Assembly: GCF_009914755.1 (NCBI RefSeq)
Contig: NC_060930.1
Direction: 5' to 3' (one strand)
Source of the DNA: the human T2T-CHM13v2.0 reference genome, Homo sapiens
DNA: 64,000 nt
Numbering within the stretch: position 1 is the first letter of the stretch; every line of letters begins with the position of its first letter. Below the pieces are notes generated by a model. The model was given only the letters and a program-made list of their open reading frames with translations, was not told the DNA's origin and did not search any database. Positions 17,241 to 38,114 of this stretch are shown here, piece after piece. Made by a program: the position numbers and the translations under genes.

Positions 17241-18779
17241 CTATCTGTTTTAAAGTGGTCCTTGCTTTAGGAAGAAAAAATTCAGGTGAGGAAGGCCTAG
17301 GATTGCTCAGGCAGGTGGAAATACTGCATTTTGAAAAAGATGCCTTTACATTTAAAAATGGTTAAGATGCAAACTTTCATGTTACATGTATCATGCCACA
17401 ATTTAATTTGTGCGTGTGAGCATGTGTATGACCAGTCTGGAGTGCAGTGGCACGATCATAGTTCACTGAAACCTCAATCTCCTGGGCTCAAGGCTTTCTC
17501 CCCACTCAGTGTGGGAGAGTGGGGTGCAGGGTAGTCTGAACCCCTCGGGTTGCTGTTTCCCATGCCCTGGCAGAAGCCTCAGTAGTAGTCATACTCCTGC
17601 CTTTACCATGCCATGTGGTAGATCGGTCCAGGGTCCAAGTGGGTCTTGGCTGTGAGTGCAATCGGGGCGAGTCATTCTGTCAGGCTTGGGGACTGTGCTA
17701 CTCAGGAAAATTTTCTCATCAGCCACCCCAATCCTGTCCCAGATGGGAGGAGCAGTGAGTGCTGAGCCCAGGCTCGCTGCCTTCCCAATGCTCCCAGCAT
17801 CACACCAGCTCCTTCCCAGACACTGCAGGGTCCAGGCTCACTGTGTTCACCATGCTCTCACCATTGGCTCCCCATCATCACTGCCCTCCCAGCATCCTCC
17901 CAGCCCCTCTAGGGCACTGCCTGACCAGGTGGGGGTTGGGTGAAGAGGCAGAGGTCAGGGCAAGACTCCTGGTCCAGATTGACTTTACGTTCCTCTCTGA
18001 AACGTGACTGCATTCCACATCCTGTTCCTCTGGCAACCTCAGTTGGGATCATCTGTAGGGCAGTGTAGAATCTGGATCGGTGATGACCAATTCCTGCCAC
18101 CATGGCTTTTCAACTATATTGATTTTTCCTAAAATGGATAAACAGATTAGCAATAAGTTGTGGAAACACTGTTTTCCTTACTAACAATAGAGATGTGTAT
18201 GCATATCAATGCTGGTTTTTAAATATAAGCCCATAGGCACTCTGCTGCATGCAGATTCTATCTCAAAACAAAACACTCTGAAGATGTTCCAAGACCCACA
18301 CATACAGATTCTTTTCCTTTTTTTCTCTGCACGACATTGTATAGAATGACTGCATCACAACAAATGTAACCAGTGTCTATGTCTGAAGATCTAGATGGTC
18401 TCCAGTCAGTTATTTTTACAGAAACCAAATGCTGCAGAAAGTGTGCTTGAATGAATCTCAATTCAATTGTGTAGAATAGATTTCCAGACACAGAATTGCT
18501 GTGCAAAGTAATGCACCTTTAAAGTGTCTCATGTCACGGGATGGCAATGCTGGTAACACTCTTGTCTGTGATTGTGATGACCCAGCTTGGGCAGAGGATG
18601 GTGAAACATCCACTGCAGAGGGAGGGGAAACTGGTACAGGCTTCCTGAGGGACAAGGTGACAGGGTTCATCAAGAGTCAAAAATATCCAAGTCTGAATGA
18701 AGAATATGTATTCATATGCATTTGAAATGGAGTAAAGATTCCCTGGAAAGATGAAAAGAATCCAATAAAGTTTCGTCTG

Positions 18780-19900
18780 TGTGGCCAATGAGAGTGGACG
18801 CAGGCAGGGGCGGGGGAGCCTTTCACACATGACTTTTCATGGTTTCGATCCTGATACACGTGAATATATGGAGGTGAAGTAGTAAGGAAGGGTGGGGCCG
18901 GGAGCCCCGGCGACGGTCACCAGTTGAGCTCGCCTGATCTGTTGTGGGCTACGAGAGTCCGGGGACGGGCAATCTGGGCAGAGTCGCACGAGGCTGCTGC
19001 AGTGATGAGGCACTGGTTCTAGAAATTTACCCAACGGTGTTGTCATAGGGGGGACATTACAGGTGATTGCTGATTTCAACCACAGATGACTTTCGGGGAA
19101 AGTTCTCTCCTGGGGGTTTCTGTTTCTACCCCGCCGCGTCCTCTCCGAGTTCTGCGCGCTCCTCCCAGGGCGCCCGCTGTCCCCGAGCTCTGGACCCGGG
19201 TCCTGCCCAGTGGAGACCGCGGAGTTGGTGCCCCGCTTGCGGCCGATGCTCCCGGGCCTCCGAGTCCACAGCGTCCGGACAAAACGGCCTTTGGAAGACC
19301 TGGGAGGACTCGCCGGTAGCGGCAAGGGAAGGAGCCAGGAAATGCGGGGGTCGGTGGGGTGAGGAGCACGGGGTTCCTACTTCATCCTCGCGGAAACTTT
19401 GCCACCGGCTCAGTGTGGAGACCTCACCGTCCCGCTTGGATCCGTGGGGCTCCGGCAATGTGGCCTCCGCGAGGACCCCCATCCTCCTTGCCCTGGGGAT
19501 GCTGCGGGAGGGCGCCCGGGCCGCACTAGGTCCTGAGTGTCCAGGGTCCGGCAGGGGCTTCCCGTTGTCGCCTCCCCGACCCCGCCGCTCGCGGTCCAGG
19601 GCTCCTGGTTTCTCCACTGGGCTGGGGGCCCGGAGCATGGACGTCGTGAGGCGGAGAAAACCTTGGGATGGGTGGAAAAGAAGGATCGGAGAGAGGGCGG
19701 GAGAAAGGGAGAGGAAGGAAGCAGGTAAGGCCGGAGAACAATGAGCAACCCCCACCACGAAAGTGGGGAGAGGGGGACACGCGCACAGCCCCCACACTCC
19801 ACCGACTCTCCGTCTCCTGCTCTCTGCCCTGTAAGGAACGCAGGCCCCACCCCCTCCACCCTCACTGTGTTTGGGATCAGCCATTTCAGCGGGATGCCTC
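18780..19900. promoter_or_regulatory. Non-genic CpG-rich region with CCAAT, GC box and E-box
   Basis: ggccaatg ~18783, ggggcggggg ~18807, cacgtg ~18857; high CpG density to ~19900. Confidence 0.55.
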
Positions 19901-19983
19901 TTGTGGGTGCGATTGGCATTTCCCTGAGGGCTGTGAACACCAAACACCTTTTCCTGGGCTCACTGCAATTTGCATTCTTCTTC

Positions 19984-20565
19984 TGATGCCAGTGGGCAAG
20001 GGGAGGTCCCCAAACGCTGATGGGACCCCGACTCTAGCCGGTGTGGGGCTCTTGACACCGCATGAGGAAATGAATTCAAGGACGAGTAGGAAAATAGAGA
20101 AAGGATGGAGATTTATTGTAAAAGGAAAAGTACACACTCAAGTAAAGGGAGTGCAGGGGAACTCAAGAGAGAGGCAGGGGCAAGGGGGTTTGGGGCTGCC
20201 AACTTTCAGCGTTTCTTCAACCAAGGGGTGGAATATTCATCAAAATTCCTGGAAGAAGGTGGAGATTTCTCAGAACTGTGGTGCCACCCATTTTTACACC
20301 CAATATGGGTATTCTCAGAATTGCCAGGACACTGGTGGGTGTGTGTTTAGTATGTTAATGAGCATATAATGAGGTCCTAGGTGAAACCTAGGTCAAATCC
20401 AGGGCCATGTTTGGTCCACTCTTTCCTAGCCAGCTTGGTCCACATCCTGTCTTTTAGGGTTTTATCAGCCCAGAGCCTAACAGATATTTCAACAAATTCC
20501 TTTTGCTAGTCACCTGAAACTGCTGCCTAAAATTTTCTATTCTTTTGTGACCACTTTGTGTCTCA
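19984..20565 (-). mobile_element. ERV1-class solo LTR
   Basis: TG...CA ends with cttc/cttt target-site duplication; the paralogous site at ~40175 is empty. Confidence 0.75.
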
Positions 20566-21369
20566 CTTTGGAGAAATATCTATTCAAATCCTTTGCATAT
20601 ATTTAAATTGGGTTATTTTGCTTTATAATGTTGAGTTGCAAGAGTTCTTTATGTATTCAGCATAGCAGCCCCTTACCAGATATAGGATTTTCAAACATTT
20701 TCTAAATTTTTAAAGTGTTTTAACCTTCTAAATGGAAGTCTTTTTGAAGTACAGAGGTTTTACATTAGCATGAAATGAAATTAAGCTACCTTTTATTTTG
20801 CCATTTGCACTACTGGCATACAGTACTTAAGAAGCATTAGCCAAATCCGGGGTCACAAAAATTTACTGCTCTACTTTCTTCTGAGACTGTCATAGTTTCA
20901 TGTCTTAGGTGAACACCTGCCATTCATCTAGAGCTAGTTTTTGTGTGTGCTGTAAGGAAGGGGTCAGCCTCATTCTTCTGCATGTGGCATCCAGTTGTCC
21001 CAGCACCATTCACTGCAGTGTAGGATGCACCTGTCCCACCTCCTGTCCCTCCTCCTGCACTTGGTGTCAGAACTGCCTCCTGCTGAACGGTTCTCCCAGG
21101 GTTTCCACCAATGAAGTCCCCTTATGAATCCTGTGTAGGCGTCTGCTTCTCAGAGGACCTGGACTAAGGAGTGGATTTGCCAGAGGAAATTATATTTCAT
21201 GAGATGTAACCTTCTGAGAATAGTAACACTCAGCATACCCCTGAATACATCAAAAGTAAGAAATTGCATGATTTGGTCATTTGGGTCCCACAAGTCTTCT
21301 GTCAATTTAGCTTATTGGAGTTTAAATTTTTTTTTTGTTATTTCTGCTGTTATTGTTGCTGTTGTTGTT

Positions 21370-21660
21370 GTTTTCTTTGAGACAGGCTCTCACTCTGTCA
21401 CCCAGTCTGGAGTGCAGTGGCACCACCATGACTCACTGCTACCTCAAACTCCCAGGCTCAAGTGATCCTTCCACCTTAGCCTCCTGAGGAGCTGGGACTA
21501 CAGTGACATGCTACTATACTTGGTCTGTTTTAAAATTTTCTGTAGAGACAGGGTCTCACCACGTTGCCACGGCTCATCTCCAACTCCTAGCCCCAAGCAA
21601 TCCTCGGCATTGGCTTCCCAAAGTTCTGGGATTACAGACATGAACCACCACTCCTGGCCC
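21370..21660 (-). mobile_element. AluJ
   Basis: Diverged antisense Alu. Confidence 0.85.
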
Positions 21661-22165
21661 CAAAAGTTATTGCTTTTTAGTTTTTACTTTTCACATGGTT
21701 GTATGACATTATGTAGATTTTTAAAATTCTGTATAAGTAATTTGGGGAATGCTATATAATATAATGTTTTCTTTAGCCACAGCTTCCTAAAGATAGAAGT
21801 GGTATTAAAATGTTGTGCATTCGTCAAATCTTGAAGAAGTTTCAAATTTTTAGGTTGATTCTAACCTCTCATTTTGGTTGACACAATAATCCATAAAAAC
21901 AAGTAAAGCGCCCACTCTGATCTGGAAGGGGTAAGGAGGTGAAAGTATTGATAAGCCAAAGTGACAGCCTCTTTTGTAGACATGATCCTGCCTAAATATC
22001 TCATGCCCCTCAAAAGAGGGCCCTGAACTCCCTGCTTCTGCAGAGCTCCATGCAGTCCTTGAAGCACTCTCTGGCTGTCTCTGCAAGTGGCTGAACAGCT
22101 CCTCCTGGTCTCTGTGGGGCTGCAGAGGCTCCAGGTCCCCATGGCTCAGGGGCTGTCATGCTCAC

Positions 22166-23440
22166 CAGGTCCCATCAAGGGTGCACCCCACTGTGGGTGG
22201 TGGAGGAGACCAGGTGTAGCTGCTCCTGCCTCTACACCTCTCCTGACCGGCCAATCTTAACAGGAGGAAGGAGTAGGGATGAGTGGAGCCATGGAGGTTG
22301 GTGCTGGAAAGAACAGAAATGAAGACCTTCGTCCAATCCCCCAAATGATGGGGATCCCTTTCTGAGTTCTAGCAGCCCTGGGGTAGTCTGATGATTGGAT
22401 TCCTCCCATGTGTCTTAAACCCTATTGTATGGTAGCCACTGTGCTAGGTGCTGGGTTTACATGTGGGTGATGGATGTGTCCAGTCCTTCAGGAACTTAGA
22501 ATCCAGGGACAGAAACAAATACCCACGTGGCTGCTCCTGCTGATGTGATGTCCTCGAGGTGGTTGGGGCTATCAGAGTACAGAAGAGGGGGTGACTCATT
22601 CTGCCTGGGGAGTTGCATGGAGGCTTCTCGGGAGGTGGCATTTCAGACTCTTCTTTTGGGAATGGGAAGAATACAGCATAGCCAGGTGGGAAGAGAAAAC
22701 AGGGCACCTGGCAGAGGGACAAGGATGAGGAGGTGGCCTGGGGGTACAAATATCATAGAACGTTGGGAATCTGTGAGAAGTCTGTAGTAATGAAACCTCA
22801 GTTACTGGGGTAGACTCTTTCCACAGGGAGGAGGGAATGTCAGGAGGGAAGATAGGGAAGGAGGGGTGGGCAGGAACCCCCCTGGAGTCCCTGTCTCCAT
22901 CCACAGCAAATCAACCAGGAAATCAATTCACCATTCATACATGTATGTTAACACACACACACGCAAACACACACAGAGATATGCACGCACAGTCTCTCAC
23001 ACACTCACACCACACATACACATACACTCACACAAAGACACACACATACACAAATGTATACTGAAATACAGACACAGACACAAATGCACGTGCACACACA
23101 AAGACACATAAACACACAGAAGAAACTGGGTGTCATCTCAAGAGTTGTCATGTCTGGCCCATCCTGCCCACTCACCTGTCACCTCAGGGGCTGCCTCCTC
23201 GCTCATGAAGGATTTCTGAAGTCGTCAATCAGGATGTCACTGTGTGATCTGAAACACTCAGACAGCTCCTCACTCTGACCTTCATTCCTGGTCCCCTTGG
23301 TTCTGGGATGAAGCAGAGTCCTATTGGTTTACGTTGCAGCAGACGAGAAACCTCTCCCGTGGGGCAGAACTGCTGGGCCACCAGAGAGCACCCCTCTGCT
23401 CTTTACTCTCAGAGCATCTTTATCTGCAGGGTGGGAGGAA
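22166..23440 (-). pseudogene. Ancient RAET1/ULBP-family pseudogene fragment (alpha2 exon 23176-23440; exon-4-like 22166-22303)
   Basis: ggggcag|TT CCT CCC ACC CTG CAG ATA AAG ATG CTC TGA GAG TAA AGA GCA GAG GGG = PPTLQIKML*E*RAEG versus [16 protein letters not shown]; ends GAG GTG ACA G|gtgagt; TG-rich intron; tttccag|CA CCA ACC TCC ATG GCT CCA versus ULBP3 tttcag|CA CCA CCC ACC ATG GCC CCA. Confidence 0.72.
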
Positions 23441-23639
23441 CTGCCCCAACCCCTAAAAAGGAACTCTTTATGGACCCCTCATCCACCATGATGTCAACGT
23501 CTGTTTTGTCTTCTCTGTAGCCCTTGGCTGTGGATCCCAAGCTGTGTGCCAAGGAGCTCAGGGCACAAACGCACCTTGAGCAAACCCTCTGGGCCTATTG
23601 AAATAGTGTGCTGGACCACACTAGAAAGTACTAGTCCAA

Positions 23640-23860
23640 GATTTTTTATAATTTCAACATTAGACTATGCAACATTGCTTTAGATGACATAGTATTTTTA
23701 AAATCTGTGATTTCAACAGTTGTTGTGATAAAAAACCAAGAACCTCTGCAAAAATCGGTATGAAATAGGAAATAAGGATGGCTGTGTCCAATCTGCTTGC
23801 AAGGTTTGAGAAGTTGCTCAGTGCCCAGCAGGTACACATGTCCATTAATAAACACATGTG
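23640..23860 (+). mobile_element. hAT-Charlie transposon 3' fragment, interrupted by the PHB retrocopy
   Basis: Encodes MAVSNLLARFEKLLSAQQVHMS, resembling a Charlie transposase C-terminus; similar sequence resumes after 25730. Confidence 0.5.
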
Positions 23861-23879
23861 TCTATTTAAGAATGAAATA

Positions 23880-25720
23880 GGGGGAATTCTTGTGGAGGTC
23901 AGAGTGGAAACAGGTGTGAGAGGATCCAGCAGAAGAAAACATGGCTGCCAAAGTGTTTGAGTCCATCGGCAAGTTTGGCCTGGCCTTAGCTGTTGCAGGA
24001 GGCATGGTGAAGTCAGGCTTATATAATAAGGATGCTGGGCACAGAGCTGTCATCTTTGAATGATTCTGTGGATTACCAGACATTGTGGTAGGGAAAGGAC
24101 TCACTTTCTCATCCCATGGGTACAGAAATCAATGATCTTTGACTGCCGTTCTCGACCACATACTGTGCCAGTCATCACTGGTAGCAAATATTTACAGAAT
24201 GTCAACATCACACTGTGCATCCTCTTCCGGCCCGTCTCTAGCCAGCTTCCTCGCATCTTCGCCATCATCGGAGAGGACTATGATGAGCGTGTGCTGACGT
24301 CCATCATGACTGAGATCCTCAAGTCAGTGGTGGCTCGTTTTGATGCTGGAGAACTAATCACCCAGAGAGAGCTGGTTTCCAGGCAGATGAGTGACGACCT
24401 TACAGAGCAAGCAGCCATCTTTGGGCTCATCCTGGACAACGTGTCCTGGACACATCTGGCCTTCAAGAAGTTGTTCACAGAAGCGGTGGAAGCCAAACAG
24501 GTGGCTCAGCAGGAAGCAGAGAGGGCCAGAATTGTGGAAAAGGCTGAGCAGCAGAAAAAGGTGGCCATCATCTCTACTGAGGGCGACTCCAAGGAAGCTG
24601 AGCTGATTGCCAACGAACTGGCCACCTCAGGGGACAGCTTGATGGAGCTGAGCAAGCTGGAAGCTGCAGAGGACATCGCGCACCACCTCTCAGGCTCTCG
24701 GAACATCACCTACCTGCCGGCGGGGCGGTCCGTGCTCCTCCAGCTGCCCCAGTGAGGGCCCACCCTGCCTTCACCTCCATGGACCGACGGCCCACAGACC
24801 CGATGATTCTTAACACCGCCTTCCTTCTGCCCCCTCCCCAGAAATGACTGTGAAATTTCATGATTTGCTTAAAGTGAAGGAAAGAAAAGTAAAATCACTT
24901 CAGATCTCTAATCAGTCTATCAAATGAAACTCTTTCATTCTTCTCACACCCATCTACTTTTTTATCCACCTCCCTACCAAAAATTGCCAAGTGCCTATGC
25001 AAACTGGCTTTAGGTCCCAATTCGGGGTCTGCTGGAGCTTTGGCTTGGGAACCAGCCGCTGGCAGCACGCAGGCAGGGCAGCGTGTGATGGATTGGGGAG
25101 CACAGGTGTCCACCTGGGTCCACGTGTGGCCTCCATCCTGTCACTGATGAAAGATTTGCGGATGAGGGCACATGTGGCTGAACTTAGAAGGCAGGTCTCA
25201 ATCTTCCCAGCAGTTCCTGCACAGGTGCCGCTGAAGAGAGGTGCCGGGGAGGGGCAGTGAGGACGTGGTCTGTGTCTTACCATAAGGGTGATTCTCCTGA
25301 ACTGTGCGACCAGTGGAAGCGGGTGTGTGTGAACTGGGCACAGATGGAAGAATTTGCCCCTGTTGAGGTGGGTAGGCCTGATTGTTGCCCCTCAGGGTCC
25401 TAAAACTTGTATGGACTTGGATAGTGAGGAGGCCTGGACTGAGATGTGAGTCCTGTCGAAGACTCCCTCTCTACCCCCAACCTTGCTCCCTCTCAAATAC
25501 CCAACGGAATTCCAACTTGAAGGATTGTATACTGTTGGGGCTGGATGTGCCGCCAAGGATGTGTCCAATCTGCGTTCCTGCCTCCCTCATTCAGAGACTG
25601 CCCTTCTCAAGGGCTCTGGGCCTGCCCTGGGAAGGAAACAACCGTGGGAAGGAAACAAATGTGTATAAACTGCTGTTAATTAATGACACCTGGCCCTTTC
25701 AGCTCAAAAAAAAAAAAAAA
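23880..25720 (+). pseudogene. PHB1P1: Processed prohibitin-1 pseudogene (5'UTR, CDS 23941-24755, long 3'UTR, poly-A)
   Basis: Intronless [21 protein letters not shown]...LLQLPQ; premature TGA 24061-24063; 1-nt deletion at ~24097; poly-A 25706-25720; imperfect target-site duplication (a)atgaaata/acgaaata. Confidence 0.95.
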
Positions 25721-26172: not shown

Positions 26173-27774
26173 TTGTTTTAAGGTTGTCTTGAAAATCTTA
26201 CGGAGGCACCTTCTGGATTTTCCCTGGACCACTCCAGGCCATTTCGCCGGCTCTGCCTCCTGAGGGAATGCTCACCTCCTTGAAGCCAGGACTCACAGGT
26301 CACCTTCTTGGGAGAACTTCCTGTTCAGGCTACTGAGGACCTGGGGGCTCCCCTCCCACTCTTCCTCCCCACAACCTTGTTCCCCGCCCCCGAATCATCT
26401 GTCACCTTCCTATGCCCGATGCAATGCACCTGCTCATTACGTTCACCTGCTGTCCCCACTGGAGCAGGGATTTTGTCTGTTTTCCTCAGGGAAGCATCCG
26501 CAGCACAGCCCATTGTTGGTGCTGAGGCTATACTAATCCTGTGAGTGAATAAATCAGAGGCAGTGATTGGGGCAGGGGCTTCTTTCTTGTTCATTCATTC
26601 ACTACACTTTAGATGGTAACTTAAGACATGGTGGGACCAGTGTTTTCTGGGCACAGTAAATCAGAATATATTGTGAAGACAAGAAGTAGAAATAAATAGT
26701 AGGTGGAAGAATGTGAATTTTCAAGTGGGAGTTGGGAAGAGTGAGAGAAAAACCAGTCAGGAAAGGGACAAGTGTGGCTTGGTTGCAGCTAACATGGTGG
26801 AGAAACGCAGCTATCTGCAATAGAGACTGGGCGCTGTTAGGTTTCTCTGCTTTGTCGAGACCATCTCCACAACCTTCTCTGCATCCTCTTCTCTCCTGAT
26901 GCTGAATGCAGCTCTTGTGCCTTCGGTGCCAAGGAAGCCACAGTCCCAGGCCAGAGGAAGGGCTGAGGTGGACAGTAGAAAAGGAGGGAGTGGGTGCAGA
27001 AGGGGACACCTGGAAGCAATGACTTGTGGAGAATAAACAAAAAATATCACTGGAAAATATGACAAAAAAGAAGGGTATAAAGAACAAGGTGGAAATCATC
27101 TGAAATTCTATCATGCGGTGTTTAATGTTAGGGTTTTGGTGTAATCATATGTAATTTTTATAAAATTATGATCATACACCTTAGAATTATTTTAAATGAC
27201 TAGAGTGTATATTTTTAGAGCAGGGATAGAGTTCATAGTGCAGAGCTCTCTCTTGCTCCTACCACTTAATTATTTTTTTTTGGCCTCATGTCATTTTAAT
27301 TATTTATTCATTTTTTATTTCAATTCTTATTGTAAGGGGTACACATGCAGGTTTGTTATATGGGTCAATTGTGGGAGGCTGAGGCTTGGGGTCCTAGTGA
27401 TCCCATCACTCAGCCAGTAAGCATGGTACCCAACAGGTGGTTCTTCAGCCCATGTTCCCCTCCCCGCTCCCCTGTCTAGTGATCTCCAGTGTCTCCATCT
27501 TTACATTCATGTGTATTCAATGTTTAGCTCCTATCTGTAAATGGGAACCTGCAGCATGTGGTCTTCTACTCCTGTGTTATGTTGCTTATGATAATGGCCT
27601 CCAGGTCCATCCATGTAGCTGGAAAGAACTTCATTTTGTTGTCTTTCACGGCTGCATAGATTTTCATGGTGTATGTGGGCCACATTTTCTTCATTCAATC
27701 TGATCTCACACAGCGAAATCCTCTCACCGTGGGTTCAGGACACAGGAGGGGGGAATAATTTAGCCTGGGGAGGT

Positions 27775-31892: not shown

Positions 31893-33604
31893 TCAGACAA
31901 CTAAAGGGAAAATGGGCAAAAGAGTTGAACCAGCCCTTCACAGAAGAGGAAATGTGAAGGAATGGCCAATAAAAACATGAAGAGGGTTTCAGCCTAACAG
32001 GATGAGGTATCACATGACACCCACTAGACTGGCAAAACCCCCACAACCCAATAAATGCAAGGGTTGGGGAGAATGGAGAGCAACAAGAACACTCAGCCCC
32101 TTCTAAGAATGGTTGTAAATTTGTTTTTTTTTTTTTAGTATACTTGTATATGAAAGGATGTGTGTTGTGGGTTATGAGAAAAATTACATGTCTTACCAGG
32201 GATGAAGTTTTAAAAATTGAAAGCTACAGACCAGAAGAAACTTGCACTTCTGTACAAAAGAAATGCTCAAGAACGTTCTAGCAACACAGCCCTAAGGGCC
32301 CCAACCTGGCCAAACACTCATCAACAGGAAAATGAAGACATTTCCCATGTTCCCCTCATACCACGGGAGATCAAGATCACGCAGCAATGAAAATGAATCA
32401 CGTCAATGTGGATGGGTCTCAGGAAGAGAATGGAGGACAAAAATAGACATCAAGCAAATGCTCAGACTCATTGCAGCCACACAAAAGAATTCCTTCACAT
32501 CAAAGTTCAAAAACTGCAGCTGAGGCAACAGAGCAAGACCCTGTCTCAAAAAGACAACAGAAAGTTCAAAAACTAAATGGCATATTGTTTAGGGATGTAC
32601 ACATACATGGTGAAAGAAATGTACTAAGAAGAAAAGCATGGGAATAATAAAGACTAAAGCAGAAAGTGACTCCCTCTGTACAAGGGAAGGGACTGGGATT
32701 CAGGAGGGGCCTCCAGGGAGCATCCAAAGTTAAGTCTCTTCAGATTCTATTTCCTAAACTTGGTGGAGGTCCTGTGTGTCCAACGTGTCGATATTCTACC
32801 CATATTGTATAAATACTTTCTTCTGTTCAATGTTTAGAAGGCAATTATAAAAAAGATCCATTAAATAGCAAGATGGCAGATACACATCAGGAAGGAACAT
32901 CAGGAACATCCATGGTGTTCCATCCATGGAACCTCACCATGGATGGATACCCTTGTGCTCATGGGCCTGGTCTCCTCTCAAGACACAGTCAGTTGTCGGG
33001 CATCAGAGGCCGCACTCATCATAGCAGAGAGGCAGGATCAGCTGGGACAGGGTCTTTCTGTGACACCAACTGCATCACCAGGCTGTGCAAAGTGACTCAG
33101 CTGCCAGAACTCACAGAATATCATTCTGCACCAAAACCTCACAGGAAAAATGGTAAATTCTCAGTTTCTCCATTAACAGCAGCTCTCAGATTAATCTCTG
33201 TCCTCCATTGCGTCTCCATGAAAGAAGATTTTATAGCTTTGCTTGGGTCTATTTTTCAATTCATTTTTTATTTTACTAACTGATTGAAAATATATATATA
33301 GTGTGTGTGTAATTTCGTCTCTGTCAGTCAGGATAATGATGGTTTAATTCCGATTATTATTATTATTATTATTACCAACATCATTAGTTTTTTTAAGCTT
33401 TTCAGTTCTTAAGGGTATTAATCATTGTCTTTCCGTCTCATGAGACAGAAAACAAATCCAAACTGTGTAAGAGGAAAAAGAATGTATTAATCACTAGAAT
33501 TGAGAAGTTCCCAAGCTTAACTTGCTTGGGGTACAGCTACATCTACAGTTTCAAGTGGCGTCCTGTGACTCTCTCTCTCTACTTCCCCAAATTTGGCTCC
33601 ATGT

Positions 33605-36600
33605 TTAGCTCCATGACCCTCAGACTTAAACAGAAGCACTGGCTCCTCCCAAGATCTCCAGCTCCCCAGCTCCCCGACCCTCAAACTTCAACTGCGGAAC
33701 CAGCTCCTCCCCGGGTCTACAGCTCCACGATCCTCAAACTACAACAGCAGCACCAGCTTCCCTCCAGCTCAATGATTCTCAGACTTGAGAGGCAGCACTG
33801 GCTCCTCCCCAAGGCTCCAGCTTCAAGACCCTCAAACTAAAACAGCAGCACCAGCTAATCCCTGGGTCTCCAGCTCCCTGACCCTCAAAACTGTAGACCC
33901 TCAACTGTAGCACTTGCTCCTCCCCAGGGCCACCAGCTCCACGACCCTCAGACTTACACAGTGGTAGCACCAGCTCCTCCCTAGGTCTCCAGCTCCACAG
34001 CCATCAAACTTGAACTGCAGCACCAGCTCCTCCCATCTCCAGCTCCACGATCCTCAAACTATGACAGCAGCACCGGCTCCTCCCTGGATCTCCAGCTCAA
34101 TGACTCTCAGACTTGAGAGGCAGCACCGGTACCTCCCCAAGGCTCCAGCTCCACGACCTTCCTTCAGATTTAAACAGCGGTAGCACCAGCTCCTGTCCGG
34201 GTCTTCAGCTCCACGATCCTTAAACTAGAACAGCAGCATCGCCTCCTCCCTGGGTTTCCAGCTCCATGACCCTAAGACATGAATGGCAGCACCGGCTCCT
34301 CCCCAGGGCTCCAGCTCCAGGACCCACAGATTTGAACGGCAGCAACAGCTCTTCCCCGGATCTCCAGCTCCATGACCCTCAAACTAGAACAGCAGCACGA
34401 GCCTCTCCCCGGGTCTCCAGCTCCACAACCCTCAGACAGGAACAGCAGCACTGACTCCTCCTTGGGTCTCTAGCTTCACCACCCTCAAACTTGAATTGCA
34501 GCAGCATCAGCACCTACCTTGGTCTCCAGCTCCACAACCCTCAGACTACAACAGCAACACTGGTTCCTCCCTGGATCTCCAGCTTAACGACTCTCAGACT
34601 TGAAAGGCAGCACCAGGTCCTCAGAAAGGCTCCAGCTCCAAGACCCTCAAACTAGAAGAGCAGCTGCAGCTGCACGTTGGGTCTCCAGCTCCACAACCCT
34701 CAAAGTAGAATAACAGCACTGGCTCCTCCCTGAGTCTCCAGCTCCTCAAGTCTGAGGGTCATAGAGCTGGAGACCCAGGGAGGAGCCAGTGCTGCTGTTC
34801 TAGTTTGAGGCTTGTGGATCTGGAGACTCGGGGAGGAGCTGCTGCTGCCGTTCTAGTTTGAGGGTGGTGGATCTGGAGACCCAAGGTGCAGCCGGTGCTG
34901 CTAGTGTGAGGGTCATGGAGCTGGAGACCCGGGGAGGAACTGCTGCTGCTGTTCTAGTGTGAAGGTCGTGGAAATGGAGACCCGAGGAGGAGCCCTTTGA
35001 AGAGCAGCACTGGCTCCTCCCCAGGTCTCAGACTCCATGACCTTCAAACTTTAAAAGCGATAGTACTGGCTTCTCCCTGGGTTTCCAGCTATACAACCCT
35101 CAAACATGAACAGCAGCAGCACCGGCTCCTACCCGGGTCTCCAGCTCCATGACCCTCAAACTACAACAGCGGCACCAGCCTCTCCCTAGGGTCTCCAGCT
35201 CCACGACCCTTAAAATAGAACAGCATCGGCTCCTTCCTGGATCTCCAGCTCCCAAACCCTCAGACTTCAACTGAAGCACTGGATCCTACCCACAGTTGAA
35301 CAGCAGCATGGACTCCTCCTCTAAACCTCCAGATCCATGACCCTCTGACTTAAATGGTGGTAGCACCAGCTCCTCCCTAGGTCTCCAGCTCCACGATCCT
35401 CAAACTACACAGCAGCACTGGCTCCTGCCTGGGTCTACAGCTCCACGATCCTCACACTAGAACACCAGAACTAGCTCCTCCCCGCCCTCCAGCTCCACGA
35501 CCCCCAGAATTGAACAACAGCACAGCTCCTCCCTAGGTCTCCAGCTCCATGACCCTCAACCTGAAACCACAGCAGCACCAGCTCCTCCTGGGTCTCAAGC
35601 TCCACAACCCTCAAACTAGAACAACAAAGTTCCTCCCTGGGTCCTCACCTCCACAACCCTCACACTAGAACAGAAGCACCGGCTCCTCCCTGAGTCTCCA
35701 GCTCCACAAGCCTCAAACTAGAAAAACACCGGCCCCTCCCTTGGTCTACAGCTCCACCACCCTTTGAATTAAACAACAGAAGCACCAGCTCCTCACCAGG
35801 TCTCCAGCTCCATGACCCTCACACTAGAACAGCAGCACCAACTCGTCCCCGGTTCTCCAGTTCCATAACACTAAAATTTAAACAGCAACACCAGCTCCTC
35901 CTTGGGTCTCCAGCTCCATGACTCTCAAACTAAAACAATAATGCTCATTTCTGGGTCTCCACTCCATGCACCTCACACTACAACAGCACCAGCTCCTCCC
36001 CAGGTCTCCAGCTCCACAATCCTCAAACTAGAACAACACCAGGTCCTCCCTGGTTCTCCAGCTCTATGATCCTCAAACTAGAACAACACTTCTCCTCCCT
36101 GGGTCTGTAGCTCCACAACCCTCAAACAAGGGCAACACAGCTCCTCCCAGGATCTCCAGCTCCACAACGTTCGAATTAGTACAACACAAGCTCCTCCTCG
36201 AGTCTTCAGCTCCACGACTCTATAACTGGAACAACACCAGCTCCTCCTTGGGTCTCCAGCTCCATGACCCTAAAACTAAAAAAACAATGGCTCCTCCTTG
36301 GGTCTCTAGCTCCATGACCTTAAAACAAGAACAATACCACTCATCCCCAGGTCTCCAGGTCCACGACCTGAAAACTAGAACAACACCGGCTCCTCCCTGA
36401 GTTTCCAGCTCCACGATCCTTAAACTAGAACAACAGCGCTCCTCCCTAGGTCTGCAGCTTCACGACCCTCAAACTAAAAAAACAGCGACTGCTCCCCGGG
36501 TCTCCAGCTCCACGACTCCCAAATTAGAACGAAACTGGCTCCTCCCCAGGTCTCCAGCTTCACGACACTCAAACCAGAACAACAGTACCAGCTCCTCCCC

Positions 36601-37245
36601 GGGTCTCCGGCTCCACGACCCTCAAACTAGAACAACACCGGCTCCTCCTCGGATCTCCAGCTCCATGACCCTCAAAGAAGATCAACACCGGCTCCTCCCC
36701 AGGTTTCCAGCTCCATGTCCCTCAAACTAGAACAACAGCACCAGCTCCTCCCCAGGCCTCCAGCTCCAGGACCCTCAGACTTGAACAGCAGCATCAGCTC
36801 CTCCCTAGATCTTCAGCTCCACAACCCTCAAACTAAAACAGCATCACCAGCTCCTCCCTGGGTCTCCAGCTCTATGACCCTCAAACTACAACGGGAGCAC
36901 AAGCTCCTCCCTGGAGCCCCAGTTCAATGACTCTCAGACCTGAAAGGCAGCAACACTCTTCCCCAAGGCTCCAGCTCCATTACCCTCAGATTTGAACAGC
37001 AGTAGCATCAGCTCCTCCCTGGGTCTCCAGCTCCTCAACCCTCAAACTAGAACAGCAGCACCAGCTCCATCCGGATCTCCAGATCTATTACCCTAATACA
37101 TGAGTGGGTTCTTTCCCGGTGCTCCAGTTCCATGATACTCAAACTAGAACAGCAGCACCAGCTCCTCCCTGAGTCTTCAGCTCCACGACCCTCAAACTAG
37201 GAGAACACCAGCTCCTCCCCAGGTCCCCAGCTCCATGACCCTCAT
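33605..37245 (+). repeat. D20S16-type satellite array (~47-53 bp units)
   Basis: Dozens of diverged copies of ctccagctccacgaccctcaaactagaacagcagcaccagctcctccctgggt; resembles the recalled Repbase/Dfam D20S16 consensus; block 34746-34994 is inverted. Confidence 0.88.
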
Positions 37246-38114
37246 GAACAATCCCTTCTTATGAAATTCAGCAGTCAAGAAAACTGCAGAGGAAGTAAAT
37301 GAATAAATGTTTTGCTTTCAGATTGATATTTCTTTTATGTTCACACAAGTCAGGAAACTTTTCTGCTTTCCCCAACCTTGCAATCTACTTGTGTTCAAAT
37401 ATAAGATAGAAATCCACCATTTGAAATGACCTTTAAAAACTTAGTAATATTTTTTAATATGATCTTATGTCACAGCTGTAGAAATGATCTTATTTCTCTC
37501 TGCCTGTGCAGAAGTCTTATGAACATTCAAACTATGAATTTAGTTTGTTGAGATTCCCAGAATACGCATTATCCCCAAATATTACTGCCCTCCTTAAAAT
37601 CTTCTAACACGTTCCCATCACTCGAGCATAAATGCCAGCTCCCATCCACAGCCCACAGTGCCCAGCACGGCCCTGCTCTCTTTCCTGCCAGAAAGGCCTC
37701 TGTCAGTTCTTCAAACCACACAGGCTCAGGCCCGACTCCGGGCCTCTGCCTCTGCTGTGCCCTCTGCGTGGGGTGCCTTTCCCCGGCTCCCCATCCTCCT
37801 CTCAACCTGCTCAGTTCCAGCCTGCAGAGCACCCCTCAGGTCGATGAACACACGACATCCTCCCCACATAGGCCTTTGCACACGCTATTCTCTCTGCCTG
37901 AAACACTTCCCTCTCTCATCGTCTGGGTTCACTTTTCTAATTACCATTTATCTTTGGAGTCTCCACTGAAATATCACTCCCTGCCTGCCCCCATCACTTG
38001 GACTTAACCTTGGTTAGGTTGCCAACCCCTGTCTCCTGACTCCAGGAAGCTAGATGCGATTCTAGCTCTTGGAACTTTCCCATTGCAGTGTTTTGCACAC
38101 TCGTAATTATTCTA

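What the first reader, a model, noticed from the sequence alone, without database searches (positions are those of the whole stretch)
22166..23440. Cryptic, highly decayed RAET1/ULBP gene (alpha2 + exon 4) hidden beside the PHB retrocopy
Seen: on the minus strand, 23440-23176 opens after a ggggcag acceptor as PPTLQIKML*E*RAEGCSLVAQQFCPTGEVSRLL. This aligns in register with ULBP alpha2 ([34 protein letters not shown]); the conserved Cys is now TGA (23411-23409). After frameshifts it reads RTLLHPRTKG (cf. [10 protein letters not shown]) and ends EAAPEVT G|gtgagt in phase 1 (265 nt versus 276). A TG-rich intron follows, as in ULBP3 intron 3, then an exon starting CA CCA ACC TCC ATG GCT CCA (ULBP3: CA CCA CCC ACC ATG GCC CCA). 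The ORF track misses it. Inference: it is much more diverged than RAET1M, and its end resembles recalled RAET1E (EAMPEPT), so it may be an extinct NKG2D-ligand lineage. No alpha1 exon is visible where a Charlie element and the PHB retrocopy now sit. I do not recall it being annotated.
Basis: partly seen in the sequence, partly recalled or inferred. Interest (0 to 1): 0.8.

Follow-up and report, generated by a model that had tools for sequence, protein, structure and literature searches.

The report
Decayed RAET1 gene relic, five copies
This is a dead, headless remnant of an old NKG2D-ligand (RAET1/ULBP) gene, one of five copies that were carried along as passengers when the human RAET1 cluster was duplicated; it is real but almost certainly without function.

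Summary
On the minus strand, 23440-23176 is a decayed RAET1 alpha2 exon. A DNA profile built from the nine recognisable alpha2 exons of the cluster matches it over 267 of 275 positions (E 2.1e-13). It is followed by a GT donor, a (TG)n-bearing intron, and the 3' end of intron 3 plus about 30 nt of exon 4 (22497-22273, E 1.2e-14).

It is not unique. The exon-like segment occurs exactly five times in the genome, all inside the RAET1 cluster. Each copy lies in a duplicon of about 6 kb, 3' of a RAET1 gene or of a RAET1 3'-UTR relic. All five copies share the TGA at the conserved Cys, so the gene was already dead when it was amplified.

No alpha1 exon exists in any copy, including the one that lacks PHB1P1. 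The retrocopy therefore did not remove it.

Intron divergence places the lineage at least as deep as the RAET1E split: K2P 0.53 to ULBP-type genes, against 0.37 for RAET1E.

The copies diverge from one another at the duplicon's background rate, so there is no sign of constraint. Protein-level searches find nothing.

It is absent from the RefSeq table supplied. GENCODE and the 2002 cluster paper could not be checked.

The parts
23441..23447 (-). Retained splice acceptor (ggggcag) in front of the alpha2-like exon
   Evidence: Read. The same GGGGCAG ends intron 2 in 8 of the 9 RAET1 genes compared; RAET1E has a different ending.
23176..23440 (-). Decayed RAET1 alpha2 exon, 265 nt. It carries TGA at the conserved Cys codon (23411-23409), TAA at 23405-23403, and at least two frameshifts.
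   Evidence: nhmmer E 2.1e-13 over hmm 3-269 of 275. Frameshift-aware alignment z 7.4 and 5.9. Translations.
22304..23175 (-). Intron-3 equivalent, 872 nt, with GT donor at 23175-23174 and AG at 22305-22304. It contains a decayed (TG)n array (TRF 22951-23052; TG-rich to about 23120).
   Evidence: Arrays sit at the same position in ULBP3 and RAET1M.
22273..22497 (-). Stretch homologous to the 3' end of RAET1 intron 3 plus the first ~30 nt of exon 4
   Evidence: nhmmer E 1.2e-14, hmm 33-253 of 330. blastn to RAET1L gives 63% identity, E 4.5e-11. Shuffle z 16.5 and 10.9.
22258..22303 (-). Exon-4-like start. In phase 1 it reads APTSMAPLIPTPSSC and then TAA (22260-22258). No GPI or transmembrane-type hydrophobic tail follows.
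   Evidence: No RAET1 similarity downstream of about 22273.
23645..23880 (.). Old interspersed repeat just upstream of the relic, shared with the paralogue at -84.6 kb
   Evidence: 41 matches on many chromosomes at 67-79% identity.
23881..25707 (+). PHB1P1 retrocopy, inserted into the duplicon upstream of the relic
   Evidence: The paralogue is contiguous across this point: window 25852-25724 and 23879-22960 match -84706..-84579 and -84584..-83649. Span taken from the hub table.
26625..27699 (-). Relic of a RAET1 3'-UTR end. In the ancestral unit this marked the gene end that preceded the headless fragment.
   Evidence: 78% identical to ULBP3 43020-41928, which spans the ULBP3 3' end. 27336-26172 is 84% identical to the piece that abuts the -84.6 kb copy.
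17397..23879 (-). Full extent of the shared duplicon that carries the relic
   Evidence: 85-86% identity over 5.8 kb to -83739..-77991 and -68117..-62337. Partial copies lie downstream of RAET1G and RAET1L.

Best explanation
The segment is an unprocessed, 5'-truncated pseudogene fragment of the RAET1/ULBP family. It keeps the alpha2 exon, intron 3 and the first ~30 nt of exon 4. It descends from a RAET1 paralogue that split from the other human genes at least as early as RAET1E did.

That paralogue lost its leader and alpha1 exons and acquired a stop at the alpha2 disulfide Cys. It came to lie about 0.5-2.6 kb behind the 3' end of a neighbouring RAET1 gene. The unit made of the gene 3' end, the dead fragment and about 6 kb of flank was then copied several times as the primate cluster grew. 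This left five copies of the fragment.

The window copy later gained its own TAA. PHB1P1 and an Alu lie upstream of it and are absent at that site in the -84.6 kb copy; at least PHB1P1 went in before the duplication that produced the RAET1J-side copy. The fragment does nothing now and drifts at the neutral rate of its surroundings.

Shown here: the homology, the copy number, the shared lesion, the absence of alpha1, the insertion order and the neutral divergence. Inferred: the order of truncation and amplification, the age, and that the ancestor was once a working NKG2D ligand.
For: Homology:
- alpha2 profile E 2.1e-13, nearly full length.
- Intron-3 end plus exon-4 start E 1.2e-14.
- The order is collinear with ULBP3 and RAET1L genomic DNA.
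- The (TG)n array sits at the same intron position.
- Splice signals are kept.

Family of copies:
- The exon segment has 5 of 5 genome matches inside the cluster, at 83-89% identity.
- The profile also hits the other four copies at E 2.3e-21, 2.4e-18, 1e-16 and 3.8e-06.
- All five form one clade with 100/100 support.

Dead before amplification:
- TGA at the Cys codon is present in all five copies.
- The same three-frame pattern appears in the window, dnRAET1G and lnc copies.

No alpha1:
- The alpha1 profile finds only the nine known exons in 224 kb.
- The copy without PHB1P1 is contiguous across the insertion site.

Depth (K2P over 190 intron columns):
- ULBP-type genes among themselves: 0.16.
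- Cryptic copies among themselves: 0.14.
- RAET1E to ULBP-type: 0.37.
- Cryptic to ULBP-type: 0.53.
- The exon tree separates the eight ULBP-type exons from RAET1E plus the cryptic copies at 98/99.

Neutrality:
- Identity between copies in the exon is 0.87-0.89, against a duplicon mean of 0.86-0.89 with sd 0.03 for the window-lnc pair (about 0.09 for the two pairs that include the ULBP2-downstream copy).

Not a common repeat.
Against: - Protein-level evidence is weak. tblastn gives E 0.44. Pfam gives 0 of 12 translations. PDB phmmer gives 0 hits for the window copy and four chance hits at E 0.35-0.58 for the best copy.
- Outside its first 40 nt the exon is not significant in pairwise tests. 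The full-length claim therefore rests on the profile search and on collinearity.
- No outgroup was available, so the tree is unrooted. The cryptic-to-RAET1E distance (0.73) exceeds the cryptic-to-ULBP distance (0.53), and RAET1E has a long branch, so the clock assumption is shaky.
- The paralogue at -84.1 kb coincides with an annotated lncRNA. At least one copy may therefore be transcribed, and 'no function' is shown only as lack of extra conservation.
- The history proposed (two deletions from a tandem gene pair) cannot be told apart from insertion of an exon 3-4 fragment behind a gene.
Confidence: 0.85

Rival explanations
1. It is a recent ULBP-type pseudogene that decayed unusually fast, for example through relaxed selection plus local hypermutation. 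On this view it is not an old lineage.
For: Pseudogene exons evolve faster than constrained ones, so a long exon branch (0.33) alone would not prove age.
Against: - Introns are neutral in living genes too, yet the fragment's intron 3 is three times as far from ULBP-type introns (K2P 0.53) as those are from each other (0.16).
- The five copies differ by 0.14 among themselves, so the stem predates them.
- Flanks of the same duplicon are 68-78% identical to ULBP3 flanks, while the exon is only 51-59% identical.
Confidence: 0.07
2. The resemblance is chance or is driven by low-complexity sequence (the TG repeat and GC-rich stretches). On this view there is no gene relic.
For: The first blastn hit (E 4.85e-15) includes the TG-rich intron. 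Pairwise scores without the first 40 nt are not significant. No protein-level hit was found.
Against: - The profile match covers the exon only, with no TG repeat, at E 2.1e-13. The four paralogues score better still, as expected if they are less decayed.
- A second, independent profile match lies at the right distance and in the right order.
- Splice sites, reading phase and the microsatellite position all agree.
- Shuffle controls give 0 of 500 and 0 of 200 as high as the observed scores.
Confidence: 0.02
3. The fragments are kept because they work as RNA. Their intact splice sites let them serve as exons of lncRNAs, or as alternative 3' exons of read-through transcripts from the RAET1 gene in front, which would tune ligand expression.
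For: - LOC105378052 spans -84145..-82339. It starts 2 nt before the alpha2-like exon of that paralogue and ends 26 nt after an AATAAA (hub table).
- AG and GT are kept in all copies.
Against: - The AATAAA exists in only 1 of the 4 copies that were aligned there, and the window reads AAAGAAAA.
- The window copy has no annotated transcript and no intact gene in front of it.
- Conservation of the exon equals the duplicon background.
- The exons of the lncRNA model were not visible to me.
Confidence: 0.06

Closest known systems
RAET1M and RAET1K (annotated human RAET1 pseudogenes) and the unannotated RAET1J-like locus
   Same: They are unprocessed pseudogenes in the same 6q25.1 cluster, with retained introns and stops in the alpha domains. 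RAET1K has a stop in alpha2. The RAET1J-like locus is split by BTF3P10.
   Different: Those loci keep both alpha1 and alpha2, are 76-80% identical to ULBP3 in alpha2, and fall inside the ULBP-type clade. The relic has no alpha1, is 52-58% identical, lies outside that clade and exists in five copies.
RAET1E (ULBP4), the earliest-diverging living human RAET1 gene
   Same: It is the nearest living gene by exon tree path (0.72) and by identity (58-62%). The exon ends resemble each other: WEAMPEPT compared with WETAPEVT/EEAAPEVT. A passage in PMC5884875 states that ULBP4 diverged first among primate ULBPs.
   Different: RAET1E is intact and expressed. In intron 3 the relic is farther from RAET1E (K2P 0.73) than from ULBP-type genes (0.53), so a sister relation is not supported.
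Cattle ULBP clusters with many partial pseudogenes (PMC1574312, passages read)
   Same: The paper reports 30 ULBP loci, of which 21 are probable pseudogenes, many lacking an exon. They were generated by repeated duplication of cluster segments.
   Different: The cattle fragments are recent members of the expanding family. The human relic predates the expansion that copied it.
MICC-MICG fragments in the MHC (named in PMC8044845, passage read)
   Same: They are truncated relics of NKG2D-ligand genes scattered by segmental duplication.
   Different: They belong to a different family on a different chromosome arm. No sequence comparison was made here.

Membership tests
RAET1/ULBP gene family (MHC class I-like, alpha1-alpha2 only) | alpha2-domain exon homologous to family members | tested here: met
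   nhmmer profile of 9 alpha2 exons gives E 2.1e-13 over hmm 3-269 of 275. Frameshift-aware alignment gives z 7.4 and 5.9. Pfam MHC_I/MHC_I_2 is not matched by any single frame.
RAET1/ULBP gene family (MHC class I-like, alpha1-alpha2 only) | alpha1-domain exon and leader exon | tested here: not met
   The alpha1 profile finds only the nine known exons in 224 kb at E<1. tblastn finds nothing credible upstream. The PHB1P1-free paralogue also lacks alpha1. The leader exon was not searched with its own profile; tblastn with the full-length proteins matched the ULBP3 leader only at ULBP3 exon 1 and part of the RAET1L leader at RAET1L exon 1, and found no credible leader match near the relic.
RAET1/ULBP gene family (MHC class I-like, alpha1-alpha2 only) | Family exon-intron plan: phase-1 exon 3, GT-AG intron 3, exon 4 starting CACCA... 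| tested here: met
   The (TG)n array sits at the same intron-3 position as in ULBP3 and RAET1M.
RAET1/ULBP gene family (MHC class I-like, alpha1-alpha2 only) | Location in the 6q RAET1 cluster | tested here: met
   It lies between RAET1M and ULBP3 (hub table). All five copies lie inside the cluster.
RAET1/ULBP gene family (MHC class I-like, alpha1-alpha2 only) | Open reading frame with the alpha2 disulfide cysteines | tested here: not met
   TGA at the first Cys codon in all five copies. TAA in the window copy. At least two frameshifts. The second Cys codon reads TCC in the window copy.
RAET1/ULBP gene family (MHC class I-like, alpha1-alpha2 only) | Exon 4 encoding a GPI signal or a transmembrane segment | tested here: not met
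   Homology ends about 30 nt into exon 4, and a stop follows after 15 codons.
RAET1/ULBP gene family (MHC class I-like, alpha1-alpha2 only) | Protein binds NKG2D | not testable with these tools
   No protein can be made from this locus, and the ancestral function is inferred only.
Unprocessed (duplicated) pseudogene fragment | Introns retained, disabling lesions, paralogous parent family nearby, not an interspersed repeat | tested here: met

The most novel reading that the evidence does not exclude
The five fragments are the only human remains of a third RAET1 lineage, older than the split between RAET1E and the ULBP-type genes and therefore roughly as old as the placental radiation. Intact orthologues may survive in other mammals, and the lineage may correspond to one of the non-primate NKG2D-ligand groups. 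If so, the fragments would anchor the otherwise species-specific RAET1 trees to a shared ancestral gene. They would also show that the primate cluster grew by copying a two-gene unit, one member of which was already dead.
Probability: 0.3. Interest if true: 0.5.

Novelty: new member of a known kind. Interest (0 to 1): 0.35.

Why it matters
The count of human RAET1 loci is given as ten, six expressed and four pseudogenes (PMC8044845, passage read, citing the 2002 cluster paper). These five fragments are invisible to ordinary protein searches and are absent from the RefSeq rows supplied.

They add a marker for reconstructing how the NKG2D-ligand cluster expanded. They are a passenger that dates the duplicons independently of the fast-evolving, possibly gene-converted coding exons. 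They are also a hint of a lineage older than any living human member.

The practical value is modest: better pseudogene annotation, awareness of paralogous sequence when mapping reads or designing probes in this polymorphic region, and a likely origin for the lncRNA LOC105378052. No function is expected for the window copy.

Tried and rejected
- tblastn of ULBP3 and RAET1L proteins against the window: the only hit at the site is RAET1L 118-151, 41% identity, E 0.44. It is too weak on its own.
- Pfam on 12 single-frame translations of four copies, with X at stops: 0 families. The ULBP3 alpha2 control gave MHC_I at 4.4e-14 and MHC_I_2 at 0.0057.
- PDB phmmer: window frame 0 hits; best paralogue four hits at E 0.35-0.58 (CXCL10, COA7), judged chance.
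- Exon-4-only profile (110 nt): no hit at any cryptic copy at E<1. The signal appears only when the intron end is included.
- Intron-2 end profile: no hit at the cryptic copies.
- Search for an alpha1 remnant: none.
- Test for extra conservation of the exons among copies: none. An apparent rise at 22500-21900 is within about 1.5 sd of the duplicon mean for the window-lnc pair (sd 0.03), and other patches match or exceed it.
- Rfam on 21500-23900: only a sub-threshold SRP/Alu match at 21500-21658.
- Rooting the tree: no non-human RAET1 sequence is reachable with these tools, so this was left open.
- Radosavljevic 2002, Kasahara & Sutoh 2015 and Carapito & Bahram 2015 are not held.
- Full-text searches for RAET1F/RAET1J found 0 papers. 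In the RAET1M/RAET1K/pseudogene search, RAET1M had 0 occurrences in each of the 20 papers that qualified, all of them listed.
- Four further searches found no description of such fragments. A fifth returned nothing on ULBP/RAET1. For most of these papers I saw only search listings and abstracts.

Full report
**1. What is at the coordinates**

Reading the minus strand gives the following layout.
- The acceptor ggggcag lies at 23447-23441.
- An exon-like stretch runs from 23440 to 23176 (265 nt) and ends G|gtgagt.
- A TG-rich tract follows. TRF reports a decayed dinucleotide array at 22951-23052.
- A polypyrimidine-AG lies at 22305-22304.
- The next stretch starts at 22303 with CACCAACCTCCATGGCTCCA and runs to a TAA at 22260-22258.

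- PPTLQIKMLXEXRAEGCSLVAQQFCPTGEVSRLL,
- ...RTLLHPRTKG...,
- ...EEAAPEVT.

TGA sits at 23411-23409 and TAA at 23405-23403.

**2. Is it more than chance?**

Simple tests are equivocal.
- tblastn with ULBP3 and RAET1L proteins, spliced in a script from the annotated CDS parts, gives only RAET1L 118-151 at 41% identity and E 0.44.
- A global alignment of the exon to ULBP3, RAET1L and RAET1M alpha2 exons is 49-53% identical.
- Local scores against ULBP3 and RAET1L exceed 500 of 500 dinucleotide shuffles (z 7.2 and 5.6). Against RAET1M the exon is not significant even at full length (z 1.9, 32 of 500 shuffles as high). Without the first 40 nt, z falls to 2.3, 1.6 and -1.2.

Stronger tests settle it.
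- I fetched the rest of the cluster and located nine recognisable alpha2 exons: RAET1E, RAET1G, ULBP2, ULBP1, an unannotated RAET1J-like locus, RAET1K, RAET1L, RAET1M and ULBP3.
- A DNA profile of these nine, searched over 224 kb, matches 23438-23183 (minus strand) across hmm positions 3-269 of 275 at E 2.1e-13.
- A second profile covers the last 220 nt of intron 3 plus exon 4 from seven loci. It matches 22497-22273 at E 1.2e-14, reaching about 30 nt into exon 4.
- The two matches are in the right order, on the right strand and at a plausible spacing. They are collinear with ULBP3 and RAET1L genomic DNA.
- A frameshift-aware protein-to-DNA alignment that I wrote scores 57 against RAET1E (z 7.4), 52 against RAET1L (z 5.9) and 36 against ULBP3 (z 2.8). 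The number of shuffles out of 200 that scored as high was 0, 0 and 4 respectively.
- ULBP3 and RAET1M carry decayed TG arrays at the same place in intron 3.

**3. It is not an interspersed repeat, and it is not alone**

- The exon-like 276 nt has exactly five matches in the whole genome (5 candidates, 5 scored). All are in the RAET1 cluster, at 83-89% identity.
- In window coordinates the other four copies lie as follows:
  - about -104.5 kb, minus strand, 2.6 kb behind the RAET1G 3' end;
  - about -84.1 kb, plus strand;
  - about -68.1 kb, plus strand, 1.3 kb behind the ULBP2 3' end, starting inside the exon;
  - about -1.7 kb, minus strand, 1.2-1.4 kb behind the RAET1L 3' end.
- The alpha2 profile hits these four at E 2.3e-21, 2.4e-18, 3.8e-06 and 1e-16 respectively.
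- The homology does not stop at the exons. Window 23879-17397 is shared at 85-86% identity over 5.8 kb with two of the sites, and in pieces with the others.
- The fragment is therefore cargo of a duplicon.

**4. State of the gene when it was copied**

- All five copies carry TGA at the codon that is Cys in every intact alpha2 exon.
- The window's TAA is private. The other copies read CAA there.
- The window, RAET1G-side and -84 kb copies show the same succession of three reading frames.
- The gene was therefore already disabled before the duplications.
- Among the copies, identity in the alpha2-like exon is 0.87-0.89. This is the same as the mean of 200-nt windows along the duplicon (0.86-0.89; sd 0.03 for the window-lnc pair and about 0.09 for the two pairs that include the ULBP2-downstream copy), so there is no sign of constraint.

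**5. The missing alpha1**

- An alpha1 profile built from eight alpha1 exons finds only the nine known alpha1 exons in 224 kb.
- The -84 kb copy has no PHB1P1. Window 25852-25724 and 23879-22960 map to -84706..-84579 and -84584..-83649, which is contiguous with a 6-nt overlap.
- In that copy the sequence runs within about 560 nt from a RAET1 3'-UTR-like piece to the alpha2-like exon. The UTR-like piece corresponds to window 27336-26172. Window 27699-26625 is 78% identical to the ULBP3 3' end.
- Alpha1 was therefore already gone.
- PHB1P1 and an Alu (26172-25863) are absent at these sites in the -84 kb copy, so they entered the window lineage after it separated from that copy.
- Window 23880-23645 is a genome-wide interspersed repeat, with 41 matches at 67-79% identity. 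It is shared with the -84 kb copy. Its family name could not be determined here.

**6. How old is it?**

- In the alpha2 exon tree the five copies form one clade (100/100). The eight ULBP-type exons are split from RAET1E plus the cryptic clade at 98/99.
- Identity of the window copy is 58% to RAET1E and 52-56% to the other genes. RAET1E is 62-68% identical to the other genes.
- Intron 3 is neutral in living genes as well. Mean K2P over 190 columns:

| Comparison | K2P |
|---|---|
| ULBP-type genes among themselves | 0.16 |
| Cryptic copies among themselves | 0.14 |
| RAET1E to ULBP-type | 0.37 |
| Cryptic to ULBP-type | 0.53 |
| Cryptic to RAET1E | 0.73 |

- The fragment's lineage is therefore at least as deep as the RAET1E split, and probably deeper. 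The copies spread at about the time the ULBP-type genes diversified.
- With commonly assumed neutral rates of 1-2.2e-9 per site per year (my recollection, not from a call), K 0.53 corresponds to roughly 120-260 Myr. This is a rough inference only.
- No outgroup was available, so the root is not established.

**7. Function**

- None is indicated for the window copy. It has no annotation in the supplied table, no poly(A) signal where the -84 kb copy has one, no intact gene in front of it, and neutral divergence.
- The -84 kb copy coincides with the lncRNA LOC105378052 (span -84145..-82339). That span begins 2 nt before the copy's alpha2-like exon and ends 26 nt after an AATAAA found only in that copy. 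I could not see the lncRNA's exons.

**8. What is known**

- The RefSeq table supplied has no row at 22-23.5 kb.
- The literature I could read gives ten RAET1 loci, six expressed and four pseudogenes (PMC8044845, passage read).
- The original cluster paper and two comparative reviews are not held.
- Searches for RAET1F/RAET1J returned 0 papers. Four other searches found no description of such fragments. In the RAET1M/RAET1K/pseudogene search RAET1M never occurred, and one search returned nothing on ULBP/RAET1. For most of these papers I saw only listings and abstracts.
- One of the named pseudogenes, RAET1F, should lie between RAET1E and RAET1G. It may be either the RAET1G-side copy or the solo ULBP-type exon 4 at -108.5 kb. 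I cannot tell which.
- GENCODE was not available.

**9. Verdict**

The finding is a real but inert relic. The interpretation needs three changes:
- there are five copies, not one;
- the fragment was dead and headless before amplification;
- PHB1P1 is not the cause of the missing alpha1.

It is a new, or at least unlisted, member of a known kind, with modest evolutionary interest.

Noticed in passing
outside the window: window coordinates -41185..-40923 and -39837..-39567 (+), loci L020/L021: A RAET1 pseudogene with both an alpha1 and an alpha2 exon, split by BTF3P10. It lies where RAET1J should lie (position recalled), and the supplied RefSeq table has no row for it.
   Followed up: partly
outside the window: -108497..-108168 (+), locus L014: A solo ULBP-type intron-3 end plus exon 4 (83.6% identical to ULBP3 exon 4), with no alpha exons nearby. 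It is a possible RAET1F. Next to it, -109039..-108648 (minus strand) is a sixth partial copy of window 22300-21909 at 94% identity.
   Followed up: partly
outside the window: -34137..-33611 (+), locus L021: A fragment 88% identical to the 3' end of PHB1P1 (window 25720-25195). It lies inside a further duplicon copy behind the RAET1J-like locus, and that copy has lost window-equivalent 25195-18382, including the relic. PHB1P1 therefore predates that duplication.
   Followed up: partly
outside the window: -84145..-82339 (+), locus L016: The span of lncRNA LOC105378052 starts 2 nt before the alpha2-like exon of the paralogous relic. It ends 26 nt after an AATAAA that only this copy has.
   Followed up: partly
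window 18800-19800: A CpG-rich stretch inside the duplicon, with 12-19 CpG per 200 nt and GC 0.57-0.72. It is paralogous to sequence downstream of ULBP3 (39490-38959) and upstream of RAET1G. Its function is unknown.
   Followed up: no
window-equivalent 20215-19816 in the copies at -84 kb and -68 kb: These two paralogues are 98-100% identical here, against about 87% elsewhere. This suggests a gene-conversion patch.
   Followed up: no
window 33600-37250: A long self-similar array, with many overlapping self-matches at 67-75% identity. It looks like a large decayed tandem repeat or minisatellite between the relic and ULBP3.
   Followed up: no
window 21362-21660: An Alu-like element just downstream of the relic. 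It gives a sub-threshold SRP RNA match (17 bits, E 0.11) and matches to many Alu sites in the cluster.
   Followed up: no
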